A stretch of 64,000 nucleotides of DNA from a virus (IMGVR_UViG_3300009856_000010:1-64000), one strand, 5' to 3'; shown: positions 24,542 to 63,967, counted from the first letter of the stretch. Notes: generated from the letters alone by a model not told the origin. Made by a program: numbers and translations.

Positions 24542-24644
24542 ACTAAAGTTTAAATATGATTACAAAATAGTGACAAGTAGAGTAGTGGGGTAGGGGAGTA
24601 TGACGTGTTATTGCAAAGGTAGTGTTTTCTCTTTAAAAAACCGC

Positions 24645-35183: not shown

Positions 35184-35213
35184 GGTTGGGTGAAGAATTA
35201 AAGCGTTAAAGGA

Positions 35214-35316
35214 TTATAGAAAAGCGCAAATAGGACGAACCTGGAAGTAGTAGAACTCATTGGTGCAGAACGTATCACCATCGTAACAACTGAGCAACCA
35301 AGAGGACGACGCTGAG
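35214..35316 (-). repeat. DGR variable repeat VR2
   Basis: Aligned to the TR; 14/15 substitutions fall at TR adenines. Confidence 0.75.
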
Positions 35317-38494: not shown

Positions 38495-38607
38495 AACCTC
38501 ACGGTGCGACACCAAAAAATGGCACGGTGCGAGACTTTCATCCCTCACCGTGCCGTTTCCTTTTATCTCACGGTGCGGTTTTTCGATACCGCACCGTGCC
38601 ATTTTTC
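38495..38607. repeat. nested-palindrome intergenic element, copy 3 (5 units)
   Basis: Read directly; ends GATACCGCACCGTGCCATTTTTC. Confidence 0.6.
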
Positions 38608-40243: not shown

Positions 40244-41377
40244 TTAATCGTTCACCATCATCGGCATGAGCAACAATAGCATGGTATCATCGCCCTCTGC
40301 TTCGGTCATAATGCAAGCCCGTGAGGGATCGAAGAATGATAGCGTTACCTGTTCACTCTGCGCTGTATCGAGCAGCGTATTGAGGAATGTTCCTTTAAAG
40401 GCGATACGCAGCGCATCAGTAGCGTTGTGCGTGCCCGGCATGGTTTCTTCGCCGCTCATGGAGAAGTCATAGTCGTGGGCGGATAGTTTCAACGCTTCGC
40501 CTCCGGATAGGAGTTCCAGCACTACCTGACTGCTTGCTTTGTTCGACATGGATAGTACGCGCCGCAGGGCATCTTTCATCAACTTGCGGTCTGCCGTGAG
40601 GTGGATGTGGTTATCTGCCGGTATTACGCCGTTGTAGTTAGGGTACCGACCCTCTATCTGCGTACAGCTCAGGGTATAACCCTCGCCCTCTATCCGTACC
40701 CGGCGACTGTCTACGGTGAGTTTCACTTCTTCGCTCCGGGGCAGAACTTTCAGGATGTTTACGGTTTTGTGGGGCAGGATGAATCCGCCACGCTCAGCAA
40801 ACGGCAAATCGGGATGCCGACGGCGAATCAGCTTATGCCCATCGCTTGCTGCCAGCGTCAATCCATCGGGTTGCATATCTACATAGATGCCGTTCATTAC
40901 CGGGCGCAGCTCGTCATCGGCTACGTAGGGCAGGGCGCGGGTACATCCGTCCATCAGGATAGACCAGGGCATGGAAGCGCGTAGGGCGGTATCCTGCATG
41001 TCTACCTCGCCGGGGTACTCAATGGGGTCGATGGCCATAAAGGTGAATCGTCCTTGCTGGTAGCGCACTTCAACTTCCAGGTTGTTGGGGTTGATGTCGA
41101 ACGTCAGGGGTTGTTCGGGCATAGCGGATAGCATGTCCGACAGGGCTTTGGCGGGCAGGCAAAAGGCATCCATGCCGGTAGGATTGTCCTGAAGGTCAAT
41201 ATTGATCTGCATGGAGAGGTGGTTTTCCAAGTCGGATGCGGTGAACGTCCAGCGGCCTTCACCGTCCTGGCTAAACTTTACGGTGTCCAGTATGGGCAAC
41301 GTATTCTTGGGACTGATTACTTTGGCTGCTGTGGCCAATGCTCCGCGCATAGCGGAGGTGGATATTACGAATTTCAT
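40244..41377 (-). CDS. dnaN: DNA polymerase III beta subunit (sliding clamp) homologue (377 aa)
   Basis: N-terminus MKFVISTSAMRGALATAAKVISPKNTLPILDTVKF..., size and three-domain length typical of DnaN. Confidence 0.6.
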   Translation of the reverse strand: MKFVISTSAMRGALATAAKVISPKNTLPILDTVKFSQDGEGRWTFTASDLENHLSMQINIDLQDNPTGMDAFCLPAKALSDMLSAMPEQPLTFDINPNNLEVEVRYQQGRFTFMAIDPIEYPGEVDMQDTALRASMPWSILMDGCTRALPYVADDELRPVMNGIYVDMQPDGLTLAASDGHKLIRRRHPDLPFAERGGFILPHKTVNILKVLPRSEEVKLTVDSRRVRIEGEGYTLSCTQIEGRYPNYNGVIPADNHIHLTADRKLMKDALRRVLSMSNKASSQVVLELLSGGEALKLSAHDYDFSMSGEETMPGTHNATDALRIAFKGTFLNTLLDTAQSEQVTLSFFDPSRACIMTEAEGDDTMLLLLMPMMVND

Positions 41378-42431: not shown

Positions 42432-42623
42432 TTACTTACGTTTTATCTCATTATAAATCCGGGAGAGTAAAATAGATATTCCAATAAGTACATGGGCTAT
42501 GATTGCGAGCAATCCGTCTGTATTGCTACACCAGCCTATAGCCATTAGGAATAGAATAAATAGGCTAATGGCGATTTCTATTGGGGGTTTATGGTCTTTC
42601 ATGGGGTTTGTTGTTTTAATCAA
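42432..42623 (-). CDS. small membrane protein, 2 TM helices (63 aa)
   Basis: Two hydrophobic helices IEIAISLFILFLMAIGW and LLAIIAHVLIGISILL. Confidence 0.3.
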   Translation of the reverse strand: MIKTTNPMKDHKPPIEIAISLFILFLMAIGWCSNTDGLLAIIAHVLIGISILLSRIYNEIKRK

Positions 42624-43161
42624 ACTCTATCACTCTTTGCTTTTTCTTAATCACTACGTCATTTTTTAATAGCACCAGCCGACCATTCAATCCGCTTTCT
42701 TCTATTGCTTTGGTGTTATGTTCACCATAAGCAATTAGACAGGAACCGGCGCCGGGTCTATCACCTTTCGTTCCGTCCTGACGAAGAAACTGTATCCTTT
42801 TTCTGAAGAAGAATAATGAATCGGCTACATCAAGAACGTACTTCTGAAACCATGCCGAATCGAAACGATTATAAACAAGGGCTATCCCATTGCCATGTTC
42901 GGCTAACTTCTGCATAAATGCGGCAATCAATACTTTCTCGTAGGGAGGATTCAACCACACACGGCCGGACCATTTCTTAATCAAACCGTTGTCATCTATT
43001 GTATAGTATCTTTCTGCGGAATGGTTTATAGCAAGTGCTTTCAACGATGTGGACGGGTCCAAATCAAATCGCCCAAGGGAATGAATGATTTCGGGCGGCG
43101 TGTACCACTCGTTTGTCGCAGACTTGCCACCAGCACCGGCGGTTTGGAAATTTACGTTCAT
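42616..43161 (-). CDS. phage-type Dam DNA N6-adenine methyltransferase (181 aa)
   Basis: NPPY motif in WLNPPYEK; size and architecture of the small phage Dam family. Confidence 0.55.
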   Translation of the reverse strand: MNVNFQTAGAGGKSATNEWYTPPEIIHSLGRFDLDPSTSLKALAINHSAERYYTIDDNGLIKKWSGRVWLNPPYEKVLIAAFMQKLAEHGNGIALVYNRFDSAWFQKYVLDVADSLFFFRKRIQFLRQDGTKGDRPGAGSCLIAYGEHNTKAIEESGLNGRLVLLKNDVVIKKKQRVIEFD

Positions 43162-43181: not shown

Positions 43182-44018
43182 TTAATCAAACAACATCCCT
43201 GTGGATCTCGGCTCATAATTTATCCATATCACTTCCTGCACTTCACTGGATCTGATATTGTTTTTCTTTTGGGGGAATTTTATCATATTCCAATCTCCAT
43301 ATAATTCTTGCATGAGAGGGCAATCATAACTACTTATCATTGCTTTGCCTTCAATATGATGCAACCGTCTGGCCAGCTCACGATGTTGGTCTTCCGAAAA
43401 CTCATATTTGTAGTCATTGGACGAAGCACGGCATTCAAGAGGGTATGGTGGGTCAACATAGAAAAAAGCCCCGGGGAAATCTATCTTACTCAGACAATCA
43501 GAATAATCTAAATTGGTTATTTGAAAATTACTCCTGATAACATCGGCGACCTCATGCAACTTTTCTATTGCGTTGTTCCACCGTGATACAGTCTCCCCGC
43601 CTTGCGCATTTACATGTTTCTTAGCCATGTGCCAACCTTTGTTTTGATGCTGCGCACCCAGTCCGAAAAATGACTGGCGGATTCTTACATAAAATCGACG
43701 GGCCTGTTCAATAGAATCAGTAGAAGGCTCCCACGAGTTGTTGTATTCTTGTTCCGAGCAGGGTGTAAGAAGTAATAAGCGAATGAGTTCGGGTTCATGG
43801 TCTCTTAATACGGCAAAAAAGTTTGTAATATCGGCATTGATTTCATTAGCTGTTTTAATTACTCTTCCTTTATAGTTAAGAGACACAACCATACTTCCGG
43901 CAAACAAGTCTACCAAATGAGTGAAGTTGTCTGGAAAGTATTTATATAAATATTCCAGCCAGGTAAACTTACCACCGAAATAGTTGAAGGCAATTAATTT
44001 TTCTCTGTTCCCGCTCAT
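43182..44018 (-). CDS. D12-class DNA adenine methyltransferase (Dam-like, 278 aa)
   Basis: FNYFGGK motif I and FFYVDPPY motif IV. Confidence 0.65.
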   Translation of the reverse strand: MSGNREKLIAFNYFGGKFTWLEYLYKYFPDNFTHLVDLFAGSMVVSLNYKGRVIKTANEINADITNFFAVLRDHEPELIRLLLLTPCSEQEYNNSWEPSTDSIEQARRFYVRIRQSFFGLGAQHQNKGWHMAKKHVNAQGGETVSRWNNAIEKLHEVADVIRSNFQITNLDYSDCLSKIDFPGAFFYVDPPYPLECRASSNDYKYEFSEDQHRELARRLHHIEGKAMISSYDCPLMQELYGDWNMIKFPQKKNNIRSSEVQEVIWINYEPRSTGMLFD

Positions 44019-51175: not shown

Positions 51176-51516
51176 TCGTATCTTGCTTTTAAATTTAAAA
51201 ATTTGCTCCAGCGGATGAAATGTAACTCATACCCCATGGCAAAGAACATTTCCGTAATCATGCGCTCCAGATTCTTGTGCGACACCAATTTATGATCGAT
51301 ATACTTCATCGTCACCGTTACCCTATAATTGGAGTATCCTCGCCGATAGGGTTCATCTTCACTTGCGACTACACTAAACGACTTCATCACTCTTTGATTA
51401 AAGAGAGCCAGAAATACCCGCTCCACCTTTTCCTTCTCTATCAGTCGAAAAGAAAAGCGTTCTATGCAATCCGAGTCTTCGTCAATTTCATGTACGGCAA
51501 AGGCATCATCTCTCAT
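51172..51516 (-). CDS. hypothetical protein (114 aa)
   Basis: ORF. Confidence 0.3.
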   Translation of the reverse strand: MRDDAFAVHEIDEDSDCIERFSFRLIEKEKVERVFLALFNQRVMKSFSVVASEDEPYRRGYSNYRVTVTMKYIDHKLVSHKNLERMITEMFFAMGYELHFIRWSKFLNLKARYE

Positions 51517-52124
51517 ATTCTTTCATCTTTAACCAGGTTTATCAACTCTGCCAAATTGGTTGTTCCGGTACGCTTATATATTCGATTCATAAAGTTTTGA
51601 ATGCTCGATTTGGTTAACTGCATTACATCGGCGATCATCCCCGAATTTGTGGTACCCGATTGTATAAGATGCAACACCCTGCGTTCTTGCGGCGTAAACC
51701 CAAACTCCCTTTTCGCCCCACAGATAACCATAAAGGAATCTTTGTTCCGGTCGGCATATCCGTTCCATGGGCAAAAGGTTTGGCACCGGCATTGCCGGGG
51801 GTATTCCATTTTGAATCGAGTACCATCAAAATCCAGTTCGTGATCCAATTCACCAAAACAACAGGATAGGATAATGTGAACCACACGTAATACATACTGC
51901 CTTCTGTTTTGCTTAATCACCGCAAACAGACTGTTATTATATAGCTTTATATGTTGTTCTACGGCTTTTATCATGGTAGGATATCGACTGGATATTTCTT
52001 TCAATAGTTCCTCGCCGAATTCATATCCCTCCTGACTTTCTAAAGTGAAAGAAGTTTTGGGTTCAGCAGTCGTTATTTCCGTGATACCATTAAGCGATAT
52101 GTATGCTTCAAACTTACGCATCAA
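51513..52124 (-). CDS. LuxR/GerE-type HTH transcriptional regulator (203 aa)
   Basis: C-terminal segment LTPQERRVLHLIQSGTTNSGMIADVMQLTKSSIQNFMNRIYKRTG. Confidence 0.45.
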   Translation of the reverse strand: MMRKFEAYISLNGITEITTAEPKTSFTLESQEGYEFGEELLKEISSRYPTMIKAVEQHIKLYNNSLFAVIKQNRRQYVLRVVHIILSCCFGELDHELDFDGTRFKMEYPRQCRCQTFCPWNGYADRNKDSFMVICGAKREFGFTPQERRVLHLIQSGTTNSGMIADVMQLTKSSIQNFMNRIYKRTGTTNLAELINLVKDERI

Positions 52125-52635: not shown

Positions 52636-53265
52636 ATGTTTAAATATAAAGCAACGAAAATAAAAGAACTGATCGCCAGCCGGACAATAAGGAAGGTGGA
52701 TCTTCGCAAACACTTTGATTACTCCAATGATGTGACTATTAACCGGTGGGAAAAAGGAGAGGAAATTTATGTCTCCAAACTTGCCGAAATCTGCAATTTA
52801 ACCAAGATGTCTATTTTGGAATTCTTTGAGTTCGACGAAAAAGACATAAAGCCCTATGGAATAAATACCCAAACTGAACCCGTAGTAACAGATATGCCTA
52901 TAACTGAAAGCGGATCCATAGAGCATATTCTAAAAAAAGAACGGGAAATCACCGAAATGAAACTCAAACATCAAAGTGAGATATTTGCTTTGAGAGAATC
53001 CCACATCAAAGAACTGACCCAAAATACGTTGAAGCTAAAGGAAGAAGAACGTGAAAACCTAAATAAACAACGCATACAGGACTGGGAACGCTTTGAGGAA
53101 AAGATGAAAGAGAAAGACCAGGAAATAACTTTGCTGAAAGAGGCTATGCTTGAGATGCAAATGCAATATAAAGAACTGGAATTGTCTACCTCGCACACAA
53201 CAACACGCACTAAAACACAATCGCTGGCGAATGAACCCGGCAGCACAACATACCAAAAAAAATGA
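52636..53265 (+). CDS. XRE-type HTH regulator with C-terminal coiled coil (209 aa), candidate repressor
   Basis: N-terminal HTH-like segment and a heptad-rich E/K/L C-terminal half; transcribed divergently from the main gene string. Confidence 0.4.
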   Translation: MFKYKATKIKELIASRTIRKVDLRKHFDYSNDVTINRWEKGEEIYVSKLAEICNLTKMSILEFFEFDEKDIKPYGINTQTEPVVTDMPITESGSIEHILKKEREITEMKLKHQSEIFALRESHIKELTQNTLKLKEEERENLNKQRIQDWERFEEKMKEKDQEITLLKEAMLEMQMQYKELELSTSHTTTRTKTQSLANEPGSTTYQKK

Positions 53266-54138: not shown

Positions 54139-57100
54139 CTACGATTTCCCGAATAATTTGTTCACCAGAGGATCACTCTTTTGCCTTTTGGCTTCATTCA
54201 ATCCGTTAATAACGTTTTGCATAAGAGGTCCTCTATCTATTCGTGCTCCAATACCATTTTCAAGCTGACGGTTTAGTTCGCTGTTTGTTCTGGTATTGGC
54301 ATCAATTACGCTCGCCATCGCTTCCAACATTGGGGCGAAACGCTCTTCGAAAACCGAACCAATAGCATCCTGCAATGATGTTTCGGAACCTCCATTGTCA
54401 GAAGAGCCAAATTGCTGTACGTTGCCCGCATCGTATGTACGATAAGATTTCCCGCTCCGGTTCTTATCAAATTGAACGATAGCTTTCATTAGATCGGGAC
54501 GGCTCATCATCATGGCAGCTGTGGTTTCTCTGCCGATAACCATTTCGGGCCCACGTTCGCCAACGAGTGCGGGCTGACCGTTGACGGTGGTAGCCACAGG
54601 GGAAGAAACCAAACCGGTAGACAGGTGATCCAAAGGGGTAGCACTATAGATGTGGCCATCATTGCCTATTGCTTGAACGTTTCCACTATCGTAGGTGAGC
54701 ATACCGGAAACAAGTTTGGTTTTAGTAACGGCTGCCGCCCCACTACCACCTCCACCAAACAATGAACCGACTTTGCCCATTGCTGCGGATAACAAGCCGT
54801 TAAGCAAAGCCGTAATAACAGCAATAAGAGGAATACCCCACCAACCGAGCTGTGCGATAGTTTGTGCGGATCCACTGGCAATACCAAGCACCGTATTCGC
54901 ACCTGCTTCGGCAGCCGATGTTGATACATTCTCGGCAGCTTGAGTTTTCTTTGCAATCACCGCTTGTTCGCCTATGCCAATCATAGCCTCGGTAACTGCG
55001 GCTGTTCCTTCGGTGGCAATAGTACCTTGTATATCTTGAGATTCAGATTCTACCTGTTCTTCTTCGTCCTTCTCACCTTTCTTGGCTTTGAGTTTGGATT
55101 TTCCCCACTTTACGGTTTCTTTCAGAATATCGCGCCCGGCTTTCTGTACGGACTTAACTTGGTTTTTACCCCCCTTTTTGTCGGTATCCGTCATATCTTC
55201 CTGGAACTCTTCTTCTCTCCGGGCCATGGCAGTACGGATGATTTGATGTTCAATTTGCTGTTTCACCCAATCAAGAATCATGTTTTTGGTGGCTTCGCCC
55301 ACACTGCGGACAAAATCCTCCATGGCTTTCTTCCTGTCCTCCAATCCCTCTTCACCACGAACAAAGACGGACTCGCCAAAGGCAGTACCAAAACTCTCCA
55401 TCGCATCGCCATACTCTTTCAGCCGGGAAAGACGTTCCTTGGTACTTTCTACCAGTTTTGCAGAGAGTTCGGAAGCTGCCTCTTGAACGGAAAGCATAGC
55501 TTCTTCTGTAGGCCGACCTTGCGATTCGAGATAGTTGTAAAAATCTTTTGCGGCTTCCAGTCGGTTTATGTACATCAACGTTTCTTGGTCCTGAATCATG
55601 GAAGGAGATGCTAAACCGATATCGCCATAAGCTTTATAAACATCAAGGGTGTCTTTATCTTTGGCTCCCTGAAGTTCATTGTCTTTGTATTGCTGCGTTC
55701 GCTGCCAACGCTCCTTTGCTATTTTCAATGAACGGTCTTTCGCTCTCTTTTCGGCTTCGGTAATGGCATCGCCATATTCAAGGGTCTTATAATAGAGGGT
55801 ACGATATTCATTGTCGGACATATTTAGCATCTGTGTACCAAATTCTTCCGAACTTGCGATAATATCCTTAAATGCTGCCAGTCCATCCGCAGAATTGATA
55901 TCTACATCATATAAACCGGAACTTATGCCGAGTAATTTCTTCATCCCAGCTTCGGCTGCTCTTTGCGCATCCGCATAACCATCTTCGGTTATATCGGCGT
56001 AATTGACAAAAAAGATACGGAGTTTCTCCAGTTGGTCTTGATACTGACGAGTAACCTGGCCGGTAAAATCATAACTCAACAACACTTTTTCAACTTCCGA
56101 CATCCGGTCGATCGTTATTTTCTGCATTTTCAGAATATCATCTTCCAGATTCTTCCAGATTCCGTCGTCTTCCTTTTCGCCAAACTTACGCAGATTGTTC
56201 CCTATCAGATCTAAATTCTTCTTCACCAGGTTATCAATGGCCTTCATAGAGTCTTCCGTCTTGGCCATATCAAAAAGAGGCAGGGATTCTAATTCTTCAC
56301 TCCATGAATTATCATCGCCATGAAGTTTTTTCCGGGCTTGGATACGAGTCTCCAAATGTTTATTCTGAATAGCGGTGAGTTCTTTTTCCCGTTGTTCTGT
56401 TGTTATCTTGCGGTCAATATAGGCTTGGTTGACCACCTGTTCTTGTTGTTTGTAGAACACTTCAATAGCGGACATGACGGCTTGGTATTCTCCACGAGCA
56501 GCTTTGAGTTCTTTATTACCCGTATTTCCTGTTTTTAAGAACTTTCCAAGTTCATTGTAACCCATGTTATTTAATTTGGCTTTCAACTCATCCAGTTGCG
56601 TCATCAAAGCATTCATTTCTTCTTCTCTGGATTTAAAGCCGCTTTCGGTAAATTGAGAGTAATCTTTGTCGGCCGCTATTTCTTTTCTCCAATCGAAAAG
56701 GGTTTTATATCTTTTCACTAACTGATCTACCGAAGCGGTTTCGATAGCAAAAGTCTCTCCTCCCCATGGGCTGGCTTTCTTGGGAGTATTATTTTCAATC
56801 CATTTGTTGTACCATTCCATAGAAGATTTCAGTTGGTCAAGCGCTTGGTGAGTAGGATTGTCTTTGATAAATTGGTTGGCAAAACCTACATATTGTTTTG
56901 CCGTATTCATAGCCATTCTCTTCGATTCTTCCGCTATAGCTTTATCGGTCGATTTCATTCCTGCCAGATAGCCATTCATATCAGTGGTTAAGCTATTAAG
57001 CAAATTTTGATTGGCTTTCGCCATATCTTTAGCAGAACCTTCTACAATGCTTTTACCAGCGACTGCACTTGCCGAAACTTCTGCCTGAACCCGCTTCTGT

Positions 57101-60100
57101 GTATCCACAAACTTTTGTACCTCTCCGGCTATCTCAATCCACTGTTGATAGGAATACCAATTTTTAAATTGATCGCCTAACCCTGTTTGAATGGCCCGAT
57201 TAATTTCACCTACCGACTTATCAATATTTTCAGTGGTAATTTTCTGCACCAAAGCCATAGCGTCGCTGGCAAATGTTTCCCCGATACCACGTTGTCCAGA
57301 GAATATATCATAAAGTTTAGACATAGACTCTGCTGCTTTATCGGCATACTTGTTTATCGAAGTCTGCCTCATGGCATCCTGCATTTCTAAGGCTATACGT
57401 TCCCGAAGTTTGGCATTAATGAGTTCATGAGCAGCAGCAACTTTTTCAGCACTATCTTTCTCAGACAACATAAAACCGAGATATGTTCCGTATTTATCAT
57501 TGATTTTCTGTATAAGCGATGCGCGTTCACCAGTCTCAGCATTTGCCTTTTCTAAAGCTCCGAAGATGGCATCTAACTCTATCTTTTCTTTTTGAAGTTT
57601 GGTGTTGAAATCCTGAATAGCAGCGGTAGCCGCACTTACTTTATCCTTAAATAATACGAAATAAGATACTACGGCAGTAATTGCACTTAGAAGTATACCA
57701 AACCAGTTTGCCTTCATAACTGCATTCAAACCTTTCCATGCTTTGGTACCTAAGTTTACATAAGTAGTTTTTGTGAATATAGCTTTCCCAACATTCAATA
57801 TTTTGGTTCCTATTGCGGCCCAATCGGCTTTGTTCATTAATGAAATATACTGTACCCAAGTTGCTCGCCCCAGTGTTAGTTGAACCGTTACAGCAGCTAA
57901 AGCAGATGCCAGCGTTCTTAATCCTGTATAGTTCCGGTCTAACCATTTAGGTATATTGCTGATTGCGGTTAATACCTGAGTCAGCCACTCTACCATCCTA
58001 CTATTAACAAAGTTCTCGCGGATGGCATTACCCATACGAGCAAGTATTGCAGCCGCATTCTCGTTTTTAATATTGTATTCATTAGTTACAGAAACAGCTT
58101 CGTCAAAAGCTTTATTAGAAGTATATAGTTGCGCTTTGAGCAACTCTGTGTTACCGATTAAGGACGAAAGTACAGCCGTCAATCTTGCCCCATCACTTCC
58201 TAAATCTCCCATCAACGGAGCCAACTCGGAAAGTCCACCACGTCGCGACAACCCCTCGAACACCATCATCGCAGCATCCATCGTTTTTCCGGCATCAAGC
58301 AGTTCTTTCAATGCAGATTCGGTAACTCCTGATACCTGGGCTACACCGCGAGTACTGGTTTGCAATGTGACTAAAAACTTGTTCAGGGCGGTAGCCGAGA
58401 CTTCCACGTTTTGTCCCAGCGCATCAGTGGTCCCTCCCAATCCTATGAGTTCGGCCATGGTTAGTTTGCTTTGAGCCGCTATACCACCTAATCGCTTGGC
58501 AAAATCAACCATATATCCCTCACTGGCCGTACTACTCTGCCCTATTTCATTGATAGCACTACCCGTAGCCAGCAAAGCCCGTTCTACACCCATCTTGGCT
58601 GTAAGCCCAAGCACATCACTGATCTTCATAAGATTTTTAACGGCTTCAGCTCCACCCAAATCTTCGCCCAACGCAACAACTAATTGGTTACCGGCACGAA
58701 CAAACTGCAATACGTTTGCTGTACCCGTAATACCGAGTTTACCAGCCTGAAAAGCTAAATCGTGAAGCTCTTGCTGAAGAGTACGAGTATCAATGCCATC
58801 AATTGCTTTGCTAAGTTCAGTTACCTGGTTAGTTGTCAAGCCTGTAGTCTTCTGAATATCAGCCAGAGAATCACTAAGTGCTATGTTGTCTTTAACTGCA
58901 CCGGTGATTTTATTTTTAATGACATTAAATACCCCATAGATACCAACGTATGCAGCCAGACGTTTCATCACACTTGCAATCGTTGAATCTTGCTGCTTCC
59001 AGCTTTTATTTACCTCGTCTAACTGTCGCTTAATGCGGGAATACTCTGCGGATTTTTTCACATAGTCTTCTGTTCCCCTGTTGGCCTTTCCTATTTCCTC
59101 CTCAAGCTGCTTGGCAGCCTGTTTAAGATCATCTAGTGATGCTGTTTTTATATTGTTGAGTACTTGCTGTACATCAACAGTCTGTCGTTCTGTTTCATCA
59201 AGTGCCCCATTTAATGCCTGTATTTGTTGGCGAATACCCTCCCGGCGAGGATCGCGCATGGTCATCTGGTTAAGTTGATTGTTCAACTCCGCAATAGCCT
59301 TCCGTATTTGTTCAGGAGAGAATGATTTAGGATCGGAAAGGATAGCGGCTACATCCAATGTTTCCCGTTGAACGTTATTTAAACGTTCAGCAATATGCTG
59401 CAACTGGTTATCCACTTCTTGCAAGCCTGTAGCATCAGTTGCTTGCAGTGAATCGCGAAACTCACGTAAAATGGCTGCTGCTTCTTTTAATTGCCCAATA
59501 GTAGCAGTATCGTCCGATACTAATGATTTGGCAGTATCAACCGACATTTTTTGTTGCTGTTCGGAGAATTGTGCAAGGTAATCTTTGGCTTGCTTTATTT
59601 TGTCGTTGTAATTATTCCACTCCTGACCACCAAGTACTACCGAATCGCGCATGCGCTCCATTTCGGCAATAGCCCCTTTGATGTCACTTGAACTTGCACT
59701 GGACAAATTACCCATAACTAAGTTAGGGTCCATTCTGGACAAATTATCCAGTGTTTTTTCAATCGATTTTATCTGCTGTTCCTGACGAATCCATTCTTGT
59801 GTTCCCCGCTCTGTACCCGACTGTACATCTCTAAGTTGTGTTAATGCCTTACGCAGTGTTTTTTCGCTGGCTGTATCAAGGTTTTGCATAACCTTTTCTA
59901 CATTCACATACCCTACTTCGAGTCTCTTAATTTGAGCAACGATCTGTTCATATTGAGATTTTAACTTATCTAATTTGTCAGAATCATTCCCTGTAAGGTT
60001 GTTCATCTCCTTAGCAGCAGATTTCAACGCTGAAACTAACATACCCCGAGAATTTCCCGCAAGGTTTTGAATTATATCATCCAGGTTAATGTATTCCTTC

Positions 60101-60309
60101 ACATTCTCCCTAACAGCACGATTTATGGCTTTCAACTCCTTCTCCATCACCCGATACTCTGTTGTATCACCCTGTCCGGCAGCTTTCATTGCTTCCATTT
60201 GGGTAGTAAGATTTTCCGCCTGATGTTTAAGAGCTTCAAGTACTTTTTGCGCCTGAGCACCATTCATAGTAAGAACGATATGCGCTTTACTGACATTATT
60301 ATTTGCCAT
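54139..60309 (-). CDS. tail tape-measure protein (2056 aa)
   Basis: Very long coiled-coil-rich N-terminal half; central TP901-like core (LTAKMGVERALLATGSAINEIGQ...); hydrophobic/Gly-rich segment GWWGIPLIAVITALLNGLLSAAMGKVGSLFGGGGSG near the C-terminus. Confidence 0.6.
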   Translation of the reverse strand: MANNNVSKAHIVLTMNGAQAQKVLEALKHQAENLTTQMEAMKAAGQGDTTEYRVMEKELKAINRAVRENVKEYINLDDIIQNLAGNSRGMLVSALKSAAKEMNNLTGNDSDKLDKLKSQYEQIVAQIKRLEVGYVNVEKVMQNLDTASEKTLRKALTQLRDVQSGTERGTQEWIRQEQQIKSIEKTLDNLSRMDPNLVMGNLSSASSSDIKGAIAEMERMRDSVVLGGQEWNNYNDKIKQAKDYLAQFSEQQQKMSVDTAKSLVSDDTATIGQLKEAAAILREFRDSLQATDATGLQEVDNQLQHIAERLNNVQRETLDVAAILSDPKSFSPEQIRKAIAELNNQLNQMTMRDPRREGIRQQIQALNGALDETERQTVDVQQVLNNIKTASLDDLKQAAKQLEEEIGKANRGTEDYVKKSAEYSRIKRQLDEVNKSWKQQDSTIASVMKRLAAYVGIYGVFNVIKNKITGAVKDNIALSDSLADIQKTTGLTTNQVTELSKAIDGIDTRTLQQELHDLAFQAGKLGITGTANVLQFVRAGNQLVVALGEDLGGAEAVKNLMKISDVLGLTAKMGVERALLATGSAINEIGQSSTASEGYMVDFAKRLGGIAAQSKLTMAELIGLGGTTDALGQNVEVSATALNKFLVTLQTSTRGVAQVSGVTESALKELLDAGKTMDAAMMVFEGLSRRGGLSELAPLMGDLGSDGARLTAVLSSLIGNTELLKAQLYTSNKAFDEAVSVTNEYNIKNENAAAILARMGNAIRENFVNSRMVEWLTQVLTAISNIPKWLDRNYTGLRTLASALAAVTVQLTLGRATWVQYISLMNKADWAAIGTKILNVGKAIFTKTTYVNLGTKAWKGLNAVMKANWFGILLSAITAVVSYFVLFKDKVSAATAAIQDFNTKLQKEKIELDAIFGALEKANAETGERASLIQKINDKYGTYLGFMLSEKDSAEKVAAAHELINAKLRERIALEMQDAMRQTSINKYADKAAESMSKLYDIFSGQRGIGETFASDAMALVQKITTENIDKSVGEINRAIQTGLGDQFKNWYSYQQWIEIAGEVQKFVDTQKRVQAEVSASAVAGKSIVEGSAKDMAKANQNLLNSLTTDMNGYLAGMKSTDKAIAEESKRMAMNTAKQYVGFANQFIKDNPTHQALDQLKSSMEWYNKWIENNTPKKASPWGGETFAIETASVDQLVKRYKTLFDWRKEIAADKDYSQFTESGFKSREEEMNALMTQLDELKAKLNNMGYNELGKFLKTGNTGNKELKAARGEYQAVMSAIEVFYKQQEQVVNQAYIDRKITTEQREKELTAIQNKHLETRIQARKKLHGDDNSWSEELESLPLFDMAKTEDSMKAIDNLVKKNLDLIGNNLRKFGEKEDDGIWKNLEDDILKMQKITIDRMSEVEKVLLSYDFTGQVTRQYQDQLEKLRIFFVNYADITEDGYADAQRAAEAGMKKLLGISSGLYDVDINSADGLAAFKDIIASSEEFGTQMLNMSDNEYRTLYYKTLEYGDAITEAEKRAKDRSLKIAKERWQRTQQYKDNELQGAKDKDTLDVYKAYGDIGLASPSMIQDQETLMYINRLEAAKDFYNYLESQGRPTEEAMLSVQEAASELSAKLVESTKERLSRLKEYGDAMESFGTAFGESVFVRGEEGLEDRKKAMEDFVRSVGEATKNMILDWVKQQIEHQIIRTAMARREEEFQEDMTDTDKKGGKNQVKSVQKAGRDILKETVKWGKSKLKAKKGEKDEEEQVESESQDIQGTIATEGTAAVTEAMIGIGEQAVIAKKTQAAENVSTSAAEAGANTVLGIASGSAQTIAQLGWWGIPLIAVITALLNGLLSAAMGKVGSLFGGGGSGAAAVTKTKLVSGMLTYDSGNVQAIGNDGHIYSATPLDHLSTGLVSSPVATTVNGQPALVGERGPEMVIGRETTAAMMMSRPDLMKAIVQFDKNRSGKSYRTYDAGNVQQFGSSDNGGSETSLQDAIGSVFEERFAPMLEAMASVIDANTRTNSELNRQLENGIGARIDRGPLMQNVINGLNEAKRQKSDPLVNKLFGKS

Positions 60310-60382: not shown

Positions 60383-60461
60383 ATTTCTTGTAGGAATCGT
60401 GTAAAATTCATTTGATTATTTCTATCTTTGCGATGTATCAACTCACATTAAAACTTTACGT

Positions 60462-60890
60462 ATGAAGAAACTTATTTGGATGATGGCAATGGTATTGCCA
60501 ATGGTGGTGTTTATGGGGTGTTCGAGCGATGAAACTACAGAATTACCACATTACCCTGATTTAATTAAAGGCGGATGGTCTATATACGAGATAGATGGAA
60601 AAAGTGTTGAAGGTCAAGGCGTAGTATTAGTTTTTCAAGACAATTACGCCATTTCTAAAAACTACCCATACGAAGGAGAAACGCACTATCACATGAAACA
60701 TGAGCCAATTACGGCTTTCAAATTAACAATATCAGGTTCTACTGATGTTTTTTATATGGATGTTTATGGCACGAGTGAGAAAAAAGGAATATTCGACTTT
60801 TTCTATGAACATGGCAAGGACGGTAAAGAACCGGAATACATTTGCCGGATGAAAGGACGTAAGATGGATATAACAGAAGAAACCGAATAA
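60462..60890 (+). CDS. lipoprotein (142 aa)
   Basis: Signal peptide with lipobox FMGC followed by SSDETTE. Confidence 0.45.
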   Translation: MKKLIWMMAMVLPMVVFMGCSSDETTELPHYPDLIKGGWSIYEIDGKSVEGQGVVLVFQDNYAISKNYPYEGETHYHMKHEPITAFKLTISGSTDVFYMDVYGTSEKKGIFDFFYEHGKDGKEPEYICRMKGRKMDITEETE

Positions 60891-60914
60891 TAGATACCAT
60901 AAAATAAACTTCTT

Positions 60915-61127
60915 ATGAAAGAAAAATCAAATAAACCAGTCGATTCTATTGATGAAAAAGAATGGGAAAGTCTTCTACCACCACAAGAGAGAAAAGATAA
61001 GAACATCTCCGAACAAGAATTTCGCTCTGATATTCGGACTATAAAGAACTGGGTGCAATTCTTTGGCGTACTCTACATAGTCAGTTTAATTATAGGAGTT
61101 ATACTATATATCACTCAAAGTAACTGA
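60915..61127 (+). CDS. small membrane protein (70 aa)
   Basis: C-terminal TM segment FFGVLYIVSLIIGVILYI. Confidence 0.3.
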   Translation: MKEKSNKPVDSIDEKEWESLLPPQERKDKNISEQEFRSDIRTIKNWVQFFGVLYIVSLIIGVILYITQSN

Positions 61128-61214
61128 ATGTAGTAATCACAATTTAGCCACTATAAAACAAATTTAAAAGATTTATTTCTTGCGCATCCCAAATATTATC
61201 CCAATATTTGCAGT

Positions 61215-61436
61215 GCTAAACAATCGTAACTAAAGTTACACAACCGCTGAGTATCGGATTACTGCTCACGATGTTTTATTGCGGGCATTTTTTATGTCCA
61301 CACGTTTTATAAGATATTGCGGCCACCATTTCCACTGTATATATAACTCTGCGGAGTTGTAACTTACGGTTGTTTAGCGACGGGAAATGTGTGGCCGTTT
61401 TTTTATCACACTAAAAGCTAAACAACCGTAAGTTAT
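61215..61436. promoter_or_regulatory. 33-bp imperfect inverted repeats (61215-61247 / 61351-61379) flanking a ~100-bp segment, plus a third half-copy at 61418-61436
   Basis: GCTAAACAACCGTAAGTTA at 61418-61436 is the exact reverse complement of 61361-61379; 61215-61233 is a 2-mismatch direct copy. Confidence 0.4.
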
Positions 61437-61499
61437 GAAAACAAAAAACGAAACTTCAATCCATGCTATCAAACAGCAAAAGGTTGAATTAAAAAATCA

Positions 61500-61754
61500 A
61501 TGGGAACATCTACCTTTGTACACGAGGGTTGCACTACTACGTGTATGGCTGTCCAAAGAACACACACACTCTTTTCCGGAGATGACCAGGAAATTGTAAC
61601 CAATGCCAATCTGCTGCGCATGGCACATGCCGGTATTGCGTTCTGCACAATGGCGTTGTCGGCAAATTCCAGTGCAGTTGTAGCACTAATCAGTCTAATA
61701 TGGTTTGGTACGGCGCTGGCCGATTTGAGAAAGAATTTAAAGAAGAAACGATAA
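61500..61754 (+). CDS. hypothetical small protein (84 aa), hydrophobic C-terminal half
   Basis: ORF downstream of the inverted-repeat region. Confidence 0.25.
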   Translation: MGTSTFVHEGCTTTCMAVQRTHTLFSGDDQEIVTNANLLRMAHAGIAFCTMALSANSSAVVALISLIWFGTALADLRKNLKKKR

Positions 61755-61773
61755 TTAATAAAGATAGTAGATT

Positions 61774-62322
61774 ATGGATGCAAAAATACAAAGGTCGGTT
61801 AATATCATCGATCAGGTAATAAACAATATAACCCTGCCATTGGCAGTGATGTCCGAAACAGAAATCTCCATCCTATTCAGTCGGGTATTTTCCCACAAAG
61901 ATGCCGATCTGGTGAAACACTACATTGGTGAGTTTGTGCATAACAATCGGAAGAACTTCGGAGGATGGTTCTTTAGTTGTGAACCTCAGATAATAAGAGA
62001 ACTCTTTGAATATTATGAGATGGATATGGAACCAGACCAATATCCGGACTCGGCAAAGCGTTATATGGCGCAGATTAAGGGAAAAAGCAAAGAAGAAACT
62101 CTACCATTTGAATATTATATCATTTATCAATTCTACCTAATGGCAGGGAACAACTCGCTGCAACTGCTGGAGAAGATAGTTCCTGAAGCATACAACAGGA
62201 TAGAAACCCGCGGAATGGATTTATATGGAAACGGTGTGAACTGGTCGAAAGCATGGAATGTGCTGAGCGACGCGGAACGAAAGAGGTTGGTGGATTATTT
62301 GTTGAATGAGTATAAAGGGTGA
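61774..62322 (+). CDS. hypothetical protein (182 aa)
   Basis: ORF. Confidence 0.3.
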   Translation: MDAKIQRSVNIIDQVINNITLPLAVMSETEISILFSRVFSHKDADLVKHYIGEFVHNNRKNFGGWFFSCEPQIIRELFEYYEMDMEPDQYPDSAKRYMAQIKGKSKEETLPFEYYIIYQFYLMAGNNSLQLLEKIVPEAYNRIETRGMDLYGNGVNWSKAWNVLSDAERKRLVDYLLNEYKG

Positions 62323-62665
62323 GATTATGAGCAATGAACGTTACCTCAGATTCAAAATCACCGGTATTCATTATCTTGAAGATGAAAAAACAAAGGAATT
62401 GGTAGAAACCTTAAAACCTGGTGATAAGCTAACCCTCGAACGAGATTCAGATAACTTTTACGATGAGTGGGCCATGGAAGTTTATTCGGATTATACCCTA
62501 ATAGGATATGTTGAATCCGGACAATCAAAAAATGAGAAACTATGTAAATTGAAACGCAAAGGAGCAATATATAGATGCCAAGTAGACGCTGTTATATTAA
62601 ATGAAGCAAAAACACCTATAGTTTATGCCAAAGCATTCTATTTGGCTGAAGATGAAATAGACTAA
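62306..62665 (+). CDS. stand-alone HIRAN-like domain protein (119 aa)
   Basis: Pattern GDKLTLERDSDNFYDEWAMEVY...IGYVESGQS resembles the HIRAN consensus (L.L.RE..N.YD.NAI.V....G..IGYV). Confidence 0.35.
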   Translation: MSIKGEIMSNERYLRFKITGIHYLEDEKTKELVETLKPGDKLTLERDSDNFYDEWAMEVYSDYTLIGYVESGQSKNEKLCKLKRKGAIYRCQVDAVILNEAKTPIVYAKAFYLAEDEID

Positions 62666-62781
62666 AAAAACGGCACGGTGCGGTATCAAAAACTCGCACT
62701 GTGCCGTTTCCTTTTACCGCACCGTGAGGTTTTGGCGAATGGCACCGTGCCGTTTTTTCATACCTCACGGTGCGGTTTTTC
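62664..62781. repeat. nested-palindrome intergenic element, copy 4, between convergent genes
   Basis: Read directly; AAAAAAACGGCACGGTGCGG ... CCTCACGGTGCGGTTTTTC. Confidence 0.6.
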
Positions 62782-63286
62782 ATGTGGTCGTTTGATGGTT
62801 ATCAGCATCTACTCCAAAAGCATTGATTATCATCACGTTTGCCTGGTAGGTATATTCATTCATAAAATATCTCACCATGCGCCGACGTAAGTGGCGGAAC
62901 TCACTGGATATAGCCGGGCGGTGTGTTTTCCCTGCTTTAGGGTTCCAGTTGGTGGTATATCTGCTTTTAAAAGTAGCCGGACTGCTACGAGTCACATCGG
63001 ATGCGGAACGCCCCGCCCCTACTCCAAGGTCTACAAAATTCAGGTAATAGTTGTAGAAAAAATCAATCCGGGCATTGTCTATCATAGCATCTTTCACCTG
63101 AAAATAGAAAGAGTCCATAGCAGCCCCAGTACTTTTCCATGAACCAGGCTTTGCTCTCAGGTTTTTTTGAGCATAACCCGGATAAACTTCATAAGGGAAT
63201 ATACCTTGTACTTTGAAGTTTCGGTATAGGTTCTCAAGGGTGTCGAGAGCCATGAGTTCGAGTTTACGGTCTATTGATATTGCCAT
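62780..63286 (-). CDS. hypothetical protein (168 aa)
   Basis: ORF. Confidence 0.3.
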   Translation of the reverse strand: MAISIDRKLELMALDTLENLYRNFKVQGIFPYEVYPGYAQKNLRAKPGSWKSTGAAMDSFYFQVKDAMIDNARIDFFYNYYLNFVDLGVGAGRSASDVTRSSPATFKSRYTTNWNPKAGKTHRPAISSEFRHLRRRMVRYFMNEYTYQANVMIINAFGVDADNHQTTT

Positions 63287-63295
63287 AACACTTAC

Positions 63296-63967
63296 TTAAA
63301 AAATGATTTTTTTATTTCTATACCACGAACCGGAAATTAATCCATCTGGATGAACAATAATCTCACGAAGCACATTATCTTTTTCAACCTTCTCTATATT
63401 ATGGAGTAATACCATATTACTATGCGAAAGAGTTATGTTCGCTCCATTATAGTTCCATGTTTCATATACATAATAGTCCTTCAACACCTGTTCAATCAAC
63501 ATGGCATTTTGATATAGGTACCATTTTAAAGAATCAATCGTATAAACACTTTTATCTTCCAAAACAGATATTAATTGTCGGATACTGAAATCGTCTACAA
63601 GATCTTTATAATGGTTTACGAATTCAAGAATTTCATCAACTGACTTCATGCCATACTCATTAATAACTGACTGAATGCGTATTTTTGAGTGAGGAAATTT
63701 CTCACGAAGATCTTCCAAATCTCCTTTTGTTATATGACTAAGACCACAATCTTTATCATCACCAATTTTATGTCTGGAAATATTTATCCAATCCGGCGAA
63801 ACTCCCAGACTTTTAATACAGGTCGCATTCGTGTTTATCGTGAGAAAACATGAATATTCGCGTATAATGTTTAACGCATCGGTCAAATGATTACATAGAA
63901 AAGGTTCTCCGCCAGTCACAGAAATGGTCGTCAGATGCCCTTGCTCGCTCATCTGCTTCAACAACAC
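63296..63967 (-). CDS. radical-SAM-family protein; the frame may continue beyond 63967 toward the window edge, so the N-terminal Cys motif is not visible
   Basis: ISVTGGEPFL glycine-rich SAM-binding motif typical of radical SAM enzymes (QueE/activase/viperin-like). Confidence 0.35.
   Translation of the reverse strand: MLLKQMSEQGHLTTISVTGGEPFLCNHLTDALNIIREYSCFLTINTNATCIKSLGVSPDWINISRHKIGDDKDCGLSHITKGDLEDLREKFPHSKIRIQSVINEYGMKSVDEILEFVNHYKDLVDDFSIRQLISVLEDKSVYTIDSLKWYLYQNAMLIEQVLKDYYVYETWNYNGANITLSHSNMVLLHNIEKVEKDNVLREIIVHPDGLISGSWYRNKKIIF

What the first reader, a model, noticed from the sequence alone, without database searches (positions are those of the whole stretch)
61215..61436. Inverted-repeat-flanked ~100-bp segment upstream of a small gene: candidate invertible switch or operator
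A 33-bp unit (GCTAAACAA[T/C]CGTAA[CTAAA]GTTACA..CGC) at 61215-61247 is repeated in inverted orientation at 61351-61379, enclosing ~103 bp. An exact 19-bp half-copy lies at 61418-61436. Bacteroidales use short inverted-repeat-bounded invertible promoters extensively. Alternatively these are iterons or operator sites for a regulator controlling the 61500-62665 gene set, which ends in a HIRAN-like protein.
Basis: seen in the sequence. Interest (0 to 1): 0.5.

Follow-up and report, generated by a model that had tools for sequence, protein, structure and literature searches.

The report
Terminator-centred RNA switch in phage island
The repeats are real, but they look less like a flippable DNA promoter and more like three alternative RNA helices around a transcription terminator, which could decide whether a small orphan gene set in a Bacteroidota-type phage is transcribed and translated; there are no relatives or expression data to prove it.

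Summary
A (61215-61247) is repeated inverted as A' (61351-61378; 24/28 plus a 5-nt insertion in A). A'' (61417-35) is a direct copy, complementary to A' over 19/19 nt. This is the longest perfect inverted repeat in the 64-kb window, and the motif occurs nowhere else in it.

A GC-rich stem T1/T1' (61320-33 / 61383-97; 14 bp, one bulge) abuts a T7 run (61398-61404). That makes it an intrinsic terminator on the + strand, interdigitated with A:A'.

On + strand RNA, A:A', T1:T1' and A':A'' are mutually exclusive. The first two are predicted isoenergetic. A':A'' extends to 22 bp through wobble pairs and buries AUG 61435, which has the best start context in the neighbourhood.

No promoter motif lies inside the repeat-bounded segment, and no recombinase was found in the window. 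The motif has no other copy, there is no Rfam match, and no homologue turned up in any collection. All island genes are singletons.

Best reading (about 0.5): a transcribed attenuator and translation-masking leader, analogous in layout to P4 seqA-CI-seqC and P1 c4. A cwpV-type invertible terminator (about 0.12) is not excluded.

The parts
61179..61210 (+). Putative Bacteroidota-type promoter: -33-like CTTG (61179-82), a 20-nt spacer, and -7-like AATATTTG (61203-10; 7/8 of TAnnTTTG). It contains a tandem repeat ATCCCAA(A)TATT x2 (61186-61208). The predicted start is about 61215-18, the first bases of A.
   Evidence: Read from the sequence; relaxed motif scan; tandem repeat. Inferred only: TAnnTTTG-like strings occur at chance frequency in this window (29 and 24 per strand).
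61215..61247 (+). Arm A, the 5' strand of helix A:A' (proposed antiterminator / anti-sequestor). It can instead fold locally as GUAAC-UAAA-GUUAC (61226-39), using the 5-nt insertion 61230-34.
   Evidence: (I2, I6, D1). Duplex A:A' is -30.7 kcal/mol on the + strand and -28.0 on the - strand. The single mismatch in the 15-mer (T61224 opposite G61369) is a G.U pair on the + strand only.
61248..61319 (+). Inner domain enclosed by A:A', with two predicted hairpins (61248-68 and 61269-61319). It contains a 13-codon mini-ORF (61271-61312) that is probably not translated.
   Evidence: Folds. The start-context score of ATG 61271 is -14.7, the 5th percentile. No Rfam aptamer match.
61320..61333 (+). T1, the 5' arm of the terminator stem (CGGCCACCATTTCC). 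It lies inside the segment bounded by A and A'.
   Evidence: CGGCCAC / GTGGCCG abutting T7 is one of only 7 such signals in 64 kb (0-1 in 20 simulations). Duplex energy is -24.8 kcal/mol.
61351..61378 (+). Arm A', the shared strand. It pairs either with A (upstream) or with A'' (downstream), and sits in the 49-nt loop of the terminator T1:T1'.
61383..61404 (+). T1' (61383-97, GGAAATGTGTGGCCG), the 3' arm of the terminator stem, followed at once by the U-tract TTTTTTT (61398-61404).
   Evidence: T1:T1' is the minimum-energy fold once the transcript reaches 61397. It makes up 41% of the ensemble of the terminated RNA, against 39% for A:A'.
61417..61438 (+). Arm A'': 19 Watson-Crick pairs with A' (61360-78), plus G.U, U.G and U-A (61357-59 with 61436-38), giving a 22-bp helix on + strand RNA that covers positions -18 to +4 of AUG 61435.
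   Evidence: I1; -31.2 on the + strand against -28.6 on the - strand. The unpaired probability of the AUG is 0.84 with A:A' enforced and 0.21 with A':A'' enforced.
61435..61754 (+). First downstream coding region: ORF54 (61435-61599) overlapping ORF84 (61500-61754; the source pipeline called only 61545-61754). An A_AAA_AAT heptamer at 61491-97 lies at the start of the overlap.
   Evidence: Start-context scores: ATG 61435 +8.2 (about 99th percentile), ATG 61500 +5.1, ATG 61545 -5.4. Coding score is weakly positive in the 61435 frame up to about 61475, then positive in the 61500 frame. ORF54 was not called by the source.

Best explanation
The element works as RNA on the + strand, not as a DNA switch.

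It sits in a 307-bp gap inside a co-directional + strand gene island: lipoprotein 60462-60890, 70-aa membrane protein 60915-61127, then ORF54/84, ORF182 and a HIRAN-domain protein up to 62665. Transcripts from the island promoter near 60423, and possibly from a weak promoter ending at 61210, therefore run through it.

The RNA can adopt three mutually exclusive long helices:
1. A:A' closes a 164-nt domain and holds T1 inside it.
2. T1:T1' is a GC-rich stem directly followed by U7, which makes it an intrinsic terminator.
3. A':A'' is a 22-bp helix that can form only in read-through RNA, and it buries the start codon AUG 61435 and its A-rich initiation region.

Proposed logic, which is inferred: when A:A' forms first, the terminator cannot form and A'' stays single-stranded, so there is read-through and translation (ON). 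When A is unavailable, the terminator forms. Any transcript that still escapes folds into A':A'' and is not translated (double OFF).

The terminated RNA of about 185-190 nt carrying A' could also act in trans on A''. That mirrors the P4 CI RNA / P1 c4 layout, where an antisense segment is flanked by upstream and downstream complementary copies and the downstream copy covers a translation start.

Shown: the repeats, the terminator signal, the mutual exclusivity and near-equal predicted energies, the better folding of the + strand, and the start-codon overlap. Inferred: that the region is transcribed as described, that the switch is used, and what input flips it (unknown).
For: - The repeat triple is non-random and strictly local.
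- T1:T1' plus T7 is one of 7 GC-stem + T-run signals in the window, against 0-1 in simulations. The other six lie at unit boundaries in intergenic gaps (24.6, 38.5, 40.2 and 62.7 kb), and most also have long loops, as here.
- Growing-transcript folds switch in order: A:A' at 61380 (-55.4), T1:T1' at 61397 (-58.9), A':A'' at 61440 (-67.2).
- Constrained ensembles of the terminated RNA give -62.4 kcal/mol for both A:A' and T1:T1' (39% and 41%). In read-through RNA, A':A'' dominates.
- The + strand folds better than the - strand: z = -4.6 against -2.1, MFE -71.4 against -62.1. Each helix is more stable on the + strand because of G.U pairs, which would be A.C mismatches on the other strand.
- AUG 61435 has the best SD-less, A-rich start context nearby (+8.2, about 99th percentile; mean of 49 gene starts 6.1). 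It is 84% unpaired with A:A' enforced and 21% with A':A'' enforced.
- There are only 30 nt between the U-tract and AUG 61435, so expression from that codon needs read-through.
- Literature analogue: P4 CI RNA pairs with seqA and seqC upstream and downstream of itself, and IsrK controls a masked downstream ORF (PMC4825925).
Against: - The case rests on a single sequence. No homologue of the element or of any island gene exists in the collections searched, so covariation cannot be tested.
- Any direct-inverted-direct repeat triple automatically gives alternative helices.
- ORF54 is uncertain. Its coding score is 0.0 overall and the source pipeline did not call it. A canonical TAnnTTTG at 61511 could give the next gene its own promoter.
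- No sensor was identified: no Rfam hit and the mini-ORF has a poor start context.
- The terminator loop is 49 nt, which is atypical, and the standard terminator scan missed it.
- A:A' is very long for a ligand-gated P1 helix.
- Energies are nearest-neighbour predictions that ignore pseudoknots and folding kinetics.
Confidence: 0.5

Rival explanations
1. cwpV-type invertible terminator, a refined version of the first reader's idea. A site-specific recombinase, host-encoded or in the unseen 19 kb of the contig, inverts 61248-61350 between arms A and A'. T1 lies inside that segment, while T1' and the U-tract lie outside. Inversion would therefore destroy the terminator and switch the downstream genes ON without moving any promoter.
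For: The anatomy matches. In-silico inversion drops the pairing probability of the stem base 61391-94 from about 0.45 to 0. Precedents exist: inversion of the C. difficile cwpV switch creates a Rho-independent terminator, and the flgB switch is 154 bp with 21-bp imperfect repeats, acts after transcription initiation, and uses a recombinase encoded elsewhere (PMC5386303). Each arm contains a small dyad (GTAA-N-TTAC, or GTAAC-TAAA-GTTAC in A) of the kind recombinases bind.
Against: No recombinase was found in the window, although Bacteroides invertases usually act locally (PMC7641763). The arms differ by a 5-nt indel and a 3-nt mismatch block. The only perfect pair (A'/A'') encloses 38 bp, too short to invert. 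This reading gives no role to A'', to its overlap with AUG 61435, or to the + strand wobble pairs. No second assembly exists in which to see the other orientation.
Confidence: 0.12
2. A compound terminator and 3'-end structure with no switching function. The helices only terminate and stabilise or process the upstream lipoprotein/70-aa transcript. The repeat triple would be a by-product of local duplication and inversion, as in this phage's other multi-hairpin terminators. The downstream genes would use their own promoter near 61511.
For: The phage builds its other terminators from repeats in alternating orientation with long loops: CACGGTGCGGT has 12 copies at 4 intergenic loci, for example 62674(+), 62716(-) and 62766(+). 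A canonical TAnnTTTG sits at 61511-18 upstream of the ORF called by the source. ORF54 is doubtful.
Against: A/A'/A'' are AT-rich, unrelated in sequence to the terminator repeat family, and not followed by U-runs. A'' lies beyond the terminator, so it cannot contribute to terminating or stabilising the terminated RNA. A:A' competes with the terminator rather than reinforcing it. ATG 61545 has a poor start context (-5.4), whereas ATG 61435, inside A'', scores +8.2. TAnnTTTG occurs at chance frequency.
Confidence: 0.2
3. DNA operator sites: three copies of a 15-19-bp site bound by a phage regulator, for example the Cro/C1-type HTH protein 52636-53265 or the GerE/LuxR-type protein 51513-52124, which controls transcription of the island.
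For: There are three near-identical sites within 220 bp, next to a putative promoter that itself carries an 11-12-bp tandem repeat. HTH regulators are encoded in the window.
Against: The sites are non-palindromic as wholes and arranged direct-inverted-direct at 145 and 57 bp centre-to-centre. That does not suit dimer binding, and none overlaps the -33/-7 region. No further copy exists elsewhere in the window. This reading does not explain the interdigitated terminator, the wobble-extended pairing or the strand asymmetry.
Confidence: 0.08
4. A mobile-element relic (a 164-bp MITE with terminal inverted repeats plus a solo end), or a type I toxin-antitoxin pair using the 32-aa hydrophobic - strand ORF 61472-61374.
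For: Terminal inverted repeats bound a short non-coding segment. The - strand ORF MIAWIEVSFFVFITYGCLAFSVIKKRPHISRR has a toxin-like hydrophobic and basic profile.
Against: No other copy of the arms was found. The 19-mer gave 0 hits in 185,579 species genomes and 2 chance hits in metagenomes, and the paired-arm patterns gave 0 hits in the genomes and in IMG/VR. No target-site duplication is visible. The - strand ORF has a TTG start, a poor start context (-4.5), a low coding score (0.09 per codon) and no nearby promoter or terminator on that strand.
Confidence: 0.04

Closest known systems
Phage P4 immunity (seqA - CI RNA/seqB - seqC) and the P1/P7 c4 antisense RNA (a1b1 - c4 - a2b2), with the related Gifsy-1 IsrK locus
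   Same: All have an antisense segment inside a leader transcript, flanked by an upstream and a downstream complementary copy on the same strand. The downstream copy lies at the translation start of the first gene. The outcome is premature termination and/or blocked translation of downstream phage genes (P4 and IsrK as summarised in PMC4825925; the P1 c4 details are from my own knowledge).
   Different: There is no sequence or structure homology: no Rfam hit, even at E up to 10, over 60900-61800. The pairing here is one contiguous 19-22-nt stretch rather than short loop motifs. An intrinsic terminator is interdigitated with the helices, whereas P4 relies on Rho. The host lineage is Bacteroidota-type rather than enterobacterial. 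Processing to a stable small RNA is untested.
Classical terminator/antiterminator attenuators and riboswitch expression platforms with combined transcriptional and translational control
   Same: There are mutually exclusive helices in which an upstream strand (A) competes for a segment (A') that would otherwise allow terminator formation or start-site masking. The alternative states are near-isoenergetic.
   Different: No sensor was identified: no aptamer family, and the leader mini-ORF is unlikely to be translated. The antiterminator excludes the terminator topologically (crossing helices) rather than by sharing nucleotides with it. The helices are unusually long, at 21-22 bp.
C. difficile cwpV switch (invertible terminator) and flgB flagellar switch
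   Same: A short segment bounded by inverted repeats sits in a transcribed leader with no promoter inside. Half of a Rho-independent terminator lies inside the segment and the other half, with the U-tract, lies outside (PMC5386303).
   Different: No recombinase was found, no evidence of two orientations exists, and the arms have an indel. A third copy sits over a start codon. The element is in a phage genome.
Bacteroidales invertible promoters (Mpi- or Tsr-controlled invertons)
   Same: Short inverted repeats flank a segment of about 100-160 bp upstream of genes, in a Bacteroidota-type genome.
   Different: The defining embedded promoter motif is absent in both orientations, and no nearby invertase was found (PMC11892184, PMC7641763).
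Lambda sib/tI retroregulation
   Same: Sequence beyond a terminator (A'') lets only read-through transcripts form a long perfect duplex, here 22 bp, a plausible RNase III substrate. Terminated and read-through RNAs would therefore have different fates. The lambda system is recalled from my own knowledge; only the helix geometry comes.
   Different: Here the long duplex is exclusive with the terminator stem rather than an extension of it. RNase III cleavage is untested.

Membership tests
Bacteroidales invertible promoter (inverton) | A pair of inverted repeats bounding a short segment | tested here: met
   A 61215-47 and A' 61351-78 lie 103 bp apart.
Bacteroidales invertible promoter (inverton) | A promoter (-7 TAnnTTTG) inside the invertible segment, which drives the adjacent genes in one orientation | tested here: not met
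   No TAnnTTTG on either strand of 61215-61470, native or flipped in silico. The motif is present in 14/15 B. thetaiotaomicron invertons (PMC11892184).
Bacteroidales invertible promoter (inverton) | A site-specific recombinase encoded nearby | tested here: not met
   No integrase, resolvase or invertase hit for about 60 screened window ORFs in Pfam and/or PHROGs; nine ORFs of 95-141 aa were not screened. Caveat: about 19 kb of the 83-kb source contig is outside the window and could not be fetched.
Bacteroidales invertible promoter (inverton) | Both orientations present in a population | not testable with these tools
   No reads are available, and no second assembly of this locus exists in any collection.
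cwpV-type invertible terminator | Inversion makes or breaks a Rho-independent terminator in the leader | tested here: met
   In silico only. T1 lies inside and T1' plus U7 outside the segment. Flipping removes all pairing of 61391-94.
cwpV-type invertible terminator | A recombinase acts on the repeats and two orientations are observed | tested here: inconclusive
   No recombinase in the window (calls above). Orientation heterogeneity is not testable.
C4 antisense RNA / P4 CI RNA / IsrK (Rfam families) | Match to the family covariance model | tested here: not met
   No Rfam family reaches its gathering score in the window. At E up to 10 over 60900-61800 there are only spurious microRNA-type hairpin hits.
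C4 antisense RNA / P4 CI RNA / IsrK (Rfam families) | An antisense segment flanked by upstream and downstream complementary copies, with the downstream copy at a translation start | tested here: met
   A, A' and A'' are arranged this way, and A'' covers -18 to +4 of AUG 61435. This depends on ORF54 being real.
C4 antisense RNA / P4 CI RNA / IsrK (Rfam families) | Processing to a stable small RNA that acts in trans | not testable with these tools
   This needs northern blots or RNA-seq.
Intrinsic (Rho-independent) terminator | A GC-rich stem immediately followed by a U-tract, downstream of and co-directional with a gene | tested here: met
   CGGCCAC/GTGGCCG (extended to 14 bp) is followed by T7 at 61398-61404, 270 nt after the stop of the 70-aa ORF. 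It is one of 7 such signals, against 0-1 simulated.
Intrinsic (Rho-independent) terminator | A compact hairpin with a loop of about 3-8 nt | tested here: not met
   The loop is 49 nt and the standard scan misses it. The same long-loop style is seen at this phage's other terminators.
Transcription attenuator / riboswitch-like leader | Mutually exclusive terminator and antiterminator structures | tested here: met
   In silico. A:A' and T1:T1' cross each other and each has -62.4 kcal/mol ensemble energy. The fold switches in order as the transcript grows.
Transcription attenuator / riboswitch-like leader | An identifiable sensor (aptamer, leader peptide or protein site) | tested here: not met
   No Rfam aptamer. 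The mini-ORF 61271-61312 has a start context of -14.7.
Transcription attenuator / riboswitch-like leader | Conservation with compensatory changes in relatives | not testable with these tools
   No homologue was found anywhere.
MITE / IS remnant | Multiple copies and target-site duplication | tested here: not met
   The only copies in the window are the three arms. There are 0 hits in the species genomes and IMG/VR with paired-arm patterns, and no flanking direct repeat.
Operator / iteron array | Dyad or regularly phased sites overlapping a promoter or origin, usually recurring at other regulated sites | tested here: not met
   The spacings are 145 and 57 bp in mixed orientation. No other copy exists (14 loose matches against 13.6 expected). 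Protein binding itself is not testable here.

The most novel reading that the evidence does not exclude
A virus-borne invertible terminator. A host or as yet unseen phage recombinase flips 61248-61350 between arms A and A', which removes the 5' arm of the terminator. A defence-like moron (orphan ORFs plus a HIRAN-domain protein) in a Bacteroidota phage would then be phase-varied without any promoter being moved. Arm A'' would add an RNA-level lock on translation.
Probability: 0.1. Interest if true: 0.65.

Novelty: new member of a known kind. Interest (0 to 1): 0.3.

Why it matters
If the RNA reading is right, this is a compact leader that needs no protein to fold. It couples termination to start-codon masking in front of an orphan accessory island, whose last gene resembles a component of a candidate anti-phage defence system (PADLOC PDC-M03B). 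It sits in a Bacteroidota-type phage lineage with no close relatives.

As far as I know, RNA-level control in Bacteroidota phages is little explored. These hosts initiate translation without Shine-Dalgarno pairing, so masking an A-rich start region should be an effective lock.

The finding is also a caution for inverton prediction from sequence alone. Inverted repeats that flank about 100 bp upstream of a gene can be the arms of an attenuator.

On present evidence the element is a single-sequence prediction of an ordinary kind of regulatory device.

Tried and rejected
**Homologue searches, all empty or at chance level**
- blastn of the island and of the element against phage and plasmid records.
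- IMG/VR scans with ORF182, the N-terminus of the tape measure protein and the HIRAN protein.
- The 15-mer in IMG/VR gave 80 single chance hits.
- The 19-mer gave 2 chance hits in JGI metagenomes, checked by blastn, and 0 hits in GTDB species genomes.
- Paired-arm patterns gave 0 hits.
- Protein searches for ORF182, ORF84 and the lipoprotein returned only the query itself. The 70-aa, HIRAN and ORF168 proteins are also singletons.
- The source contig could not be fetched.
- tblastn with ORF168 found nothing, and the tape measure protein has only 23-35% identical relatives.

**Ideas rejected**
- Known RNA family or tRNA.
- Leader-peptide attenuation: the mini-ORF has a poor start context.
- Type I toxin on the - strand.
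- MITE.
- Replication origin, cos or pac site: the element is far from the replication and packaging genes, and there is no AT-rich or iteron array.
- Link to the phage's DGR: it is 26 kb away and the repeats are unrelated.

**Other**
- I recalled a 10-bp Mpi core consensus from memory but could not verify it in the held literature, so it is not used.
- An early constrained fold used a wrong register for T1. This was corrected.

Full report
**Context**

The window is part of a divergent tailed phage of Bacteroidota type.
- Almost all genes are on the - strand, including a 2056-aa tape measure protein at 54139-60309.
- Lineage markers include DUF4494, HU-HIG and a diversity-generating retroelement.
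- Gene starts have A-rich contexts without a Shine-Dalgarno sequence.

The finding lies in a small + strand island (60462-62665) inserted between the tape measure gene and the - strand gene 62780-63286. The island encodes:
- a lipoprotein (60462-60890)
- a 70-aa membrane protein (60915-61127)
- a 307-bp non-coding gap
- two overlapping small ORFs (61435-61599 and 61500-61754)
- ORF182 (61774-62322)
- a HIRAN-domain protein (62306-62665; Pfam 5e-8; PADLOC candidate PDC-M03B 1e-9)

Every island protein tested is a singleton among about 15 billion proteins.

**The observation**

The repeats are real.

```
A      61215 GCTAAACAATCGTAACTAAAGTTACACAACCGC 61247
rc(A') 61378 GCTAAACAACCGTAA-----GTTACAACTCCGC 61351
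A''    61417 GCTAAACAACCGTAA-----GTTATGAAAAC
```

- A' and A'' are complementary over 19/19 nt (61360-78 and 61417-35) and lie 38 nt apart.
- A differs from the others by one transition in the first 15 nt and by a 5-nt insertion (61230-34).
- The 19-mer with up to 3 mismatches occurs only at these three places, against 0.01 expected.
- The pair is the longest perfect inverted repeat in the window, whereas simulated maxima were 11-15.
- A looser 14-mer search finds nothing beyond chance elsewhere.

CGGCCACCATTTCC (61320-33) pairs with GGAAATG-T-GTGGCCG (61383-97). That is 14 bp with one bulged T, followed directly by TTTTTTT (61398-61404).
- A scan for a perfect GC-rich stem of at least 7 bp abutting a run of at least 6 T finds only seven such signals in 64 kb. 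Twenty simulated sequences gave 0-1.
- The other six lie at transcription-unit boundaries in intergenic gaps, and most have long loops (sequences).
- So this phage uses intrinsic terminators of exactly this long-loop style, and T1:T1'-U7 is one of them, on the + strand.

Its arms interdigitate with the repeats in the order A < T1 < A' < T1' < A''.

**RNA behaviour**

The 246-nt region folds much better than shuffles on the + strand (z = -4.6, no shuffle as good). On the - strand it is less extreme (z = -2.1; MFE -71.4 against -62.1 kcal/mol).

Each helix is more stable on the + strand because of wobble pairs:
- U61224.G61369 lies within A:A'.
- G61359.U61436 and U61358.G61437, followed by U61357-A61438, extend A':A'' to 22 bp.

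| Transcript end (from 61215) | Minimum-energy fold | kcal/mol |
|---|---|---|
| 61380 | A:A' | -55.4 |
| 61397 | T1:T1' | -58.9 |
| 61440 | A':A'' | -67.2 |

The three helices cross or share strands, so they are mutually exclusive in a nested structure. A full A:A' helix together with T1:T1' would need a 3-nt linker to span a helix of about 28 bp, which is my geometric inference.

Constrained ensembles of the terminated RNA (61215-61405) give -62.4 kcal/mol for both A:A' and T1:T1', or 39% and 41% of the ensemble. In read-through RNA, A':A'' dominates and the other two fall below 1%.

**The start codon**

A position-weight model was built from 49 gene starts of this phage. It shows the A-rich context typical of Bacteroidota, with no Shine-Dalgarno sequence.

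| Start codon | Score | Percentile among ATGs (+ strand / both strands) |
|---|---|---|
| ATG 61435 | +8.2 | 99.4 / 98.8 |
| ATG 61500 | +5.1 | 98.4 / 97.4 |
| ATG 61545 (source call) | -5.4 | 64.7 / 55.5 |
| ATG 61271 (mini-ORF) | -14.7 | 4.7 / not computed |

The mean score of true starts is 6.1.
- A'' covers positions -18 to +4 of AUG 61435.
- The AUG is 84% unpaired when A:A' is enforced and 21% when A':A'' is enforced.
- Only 30 nt separate the U-tract from this AUG, so expression from it needs read-through.

Caveats on ORF54:
- Its overall coding score is 0.0. The score is positive only for about the first 15-20 codons, after which the ORF84 frame takes over.
- The source pipeline did not call it.
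- A TAnnTTTG at 61511 could be a separate promoter for the next gene. Such strings occur at chance frequency here.

**Best explanation (confidence about 0.5)**

The element is a transcribed leader or intercistronic RNA element centred on an intrinsic terminator.
- A:A' acts as antiterminator and anti-sequestor.
- A':A'' masks the start region of any read-through RNA in which A is not holding A'.

A weak promoter (CTTG-N20-AATATTTG, 61179-61210) would start transcripts at the first bases of A. It carries an 11-12-bp tandem repeat, and this step is inferred.

The terminated RNA of about 185-190 nt could also act in trans through A'. That is the layout of P4 immunity, where CI RNA pairs with seqA and seqC on either side of it. 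It also resembles IsrK control of a masked ORF (PMC4825925), and P1 c4 from my own knowledge.

Membership in those families fails, since there is no Rfam match. The claim is therefore 'works like', not 'is a'. The input that sets the switch is unknown.

**Rivals**

1. *cwpV-type invertible terminator (0.12).* Flipping 61248-61350 in silico abolishes terminator pairing, as in the C. difficile cwpV switch (PMC5386303). However, no recombinase was found in the window, and the arms carry an indel. This model also gives no role to A'' or to the wobble pairs.
2. *Plain compound terminator with no switching (0.2).* This fits the phage's habit of building terminators from alternating repeats. It does not explain a copy placed beyond the terminator over the best start codon, or an A:A' helix that competes with the terminator.
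3. *DNA operators (0.08).* The geometry is unsuitable and there are no other copies.
4. *MITE relic or - strand type I toxin (0.04).* There are no other copies anywhere, and the - strand ORF has poor coding and start scores.

The classical invertible-promoter reading fails two defining tests. There is no embedded promoter motif in either orientation and no local invertase. Both features are typical of Bacteroides invertons (PMC11892184, PMC7641763).

**Limits**

- Everything rests on one sequence and on thermodynamic prediction.
- No relative of the element or its neighbours exists in phage records, plasmids, IMG/VR, JGI metagenome contigs, GTDB species genomes or the protein collections. Covariation cannot be assessed.
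- Orientation heterogeneity cannot be checked.
- About 19 kb of the source contig is unseen.

**Verdict**

It is most likely an RNA attenuator and translation mask rather than an invertible promoter or operator. It is an orphan example of a known kind of device and of modest interest (0.3) until transcript or read-orientation data exist.

Noticed in passing
window 33385-36149 (- strand): A complete diversity-generating retroelement. It comprises a reverse transcriptase (33385-34863, RVT_1 4e-24), bAvd (34827-35183) and a target gene (35214-36149) with the variable repeat at its 3' end. The template repeat is 34633-34731 and the variable repeat 35217-35315. 15 of 17 mismatches fall at template adenines.
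   Followed up: yes
window 12172-12270, 24633-24767, 38515-38606, 62665-62776: A family of GC-rich repeats with core CACGGTGCGGT. There are 12 copies with up to 1 mismatch, against 0.42 expected. They cluster in four intergenic gaps in alternating orientation, with T-runs on both strands, and look like compound, long-loop bidirectional terminators that are a phage-wide 'house style'.
   Followed up: partly
window 61491-61497 (within 61435-61754): An A_AAA_AAT heptamer sits exactly where the frame of ATG 61435 (ORF54) begins to overlap the open frame of ORF84, and the coding score switches frame near here. This could be a programmed -1 frameshift, a homopolymer assembly error, or coincidence with the A-rich start context of ATG 61500. 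The start called by the source, ATG 61545, has a poor context.
   Followed up: partly
window 61186-61208: A tandem repeat ATCCCAA(A)TATT x2 lies inside the putative promoter spacer just upstream of arm A. It could be a regulator binding site. There is no other exact copy in the window.
   Followed up: partly
window 13716-14723 (-) and 62306-62665 (+): The phage carries defence-like accessory genes. One is an AbiD-family protein (PADLOC 7.8e-70; PHROG 'abortive infection resistance'). The other is the HIRAN-domain protein, which matches the candidate defence system component PDC-M03B (1e-9).
   Followed up: no
window 29581-30912, 37196-37927, 42616-43161, 43182-44018 (all -): There are four DNA methyltransferase genes (C5 cytosine, an N6/N4 type, Dam-like and D12-class N6-adenine). 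The window also has two radical-SAM proteins (27543-28373, 63296-63967), a DnaN-like sliding clamp (40244-41377) and an SPFH/Band 7 protein (28386-29210).
   Followed up: no
window 60462-63286: All six island proteins, and the flanking ORF168, are singletons: each is a cluster of one member on one contig among about 15 billion proteins. The + strand island interrupts the - strand tail-gene block just upstream of the tape measure gene, as a moron-like insertion would.
   Followed up: partly
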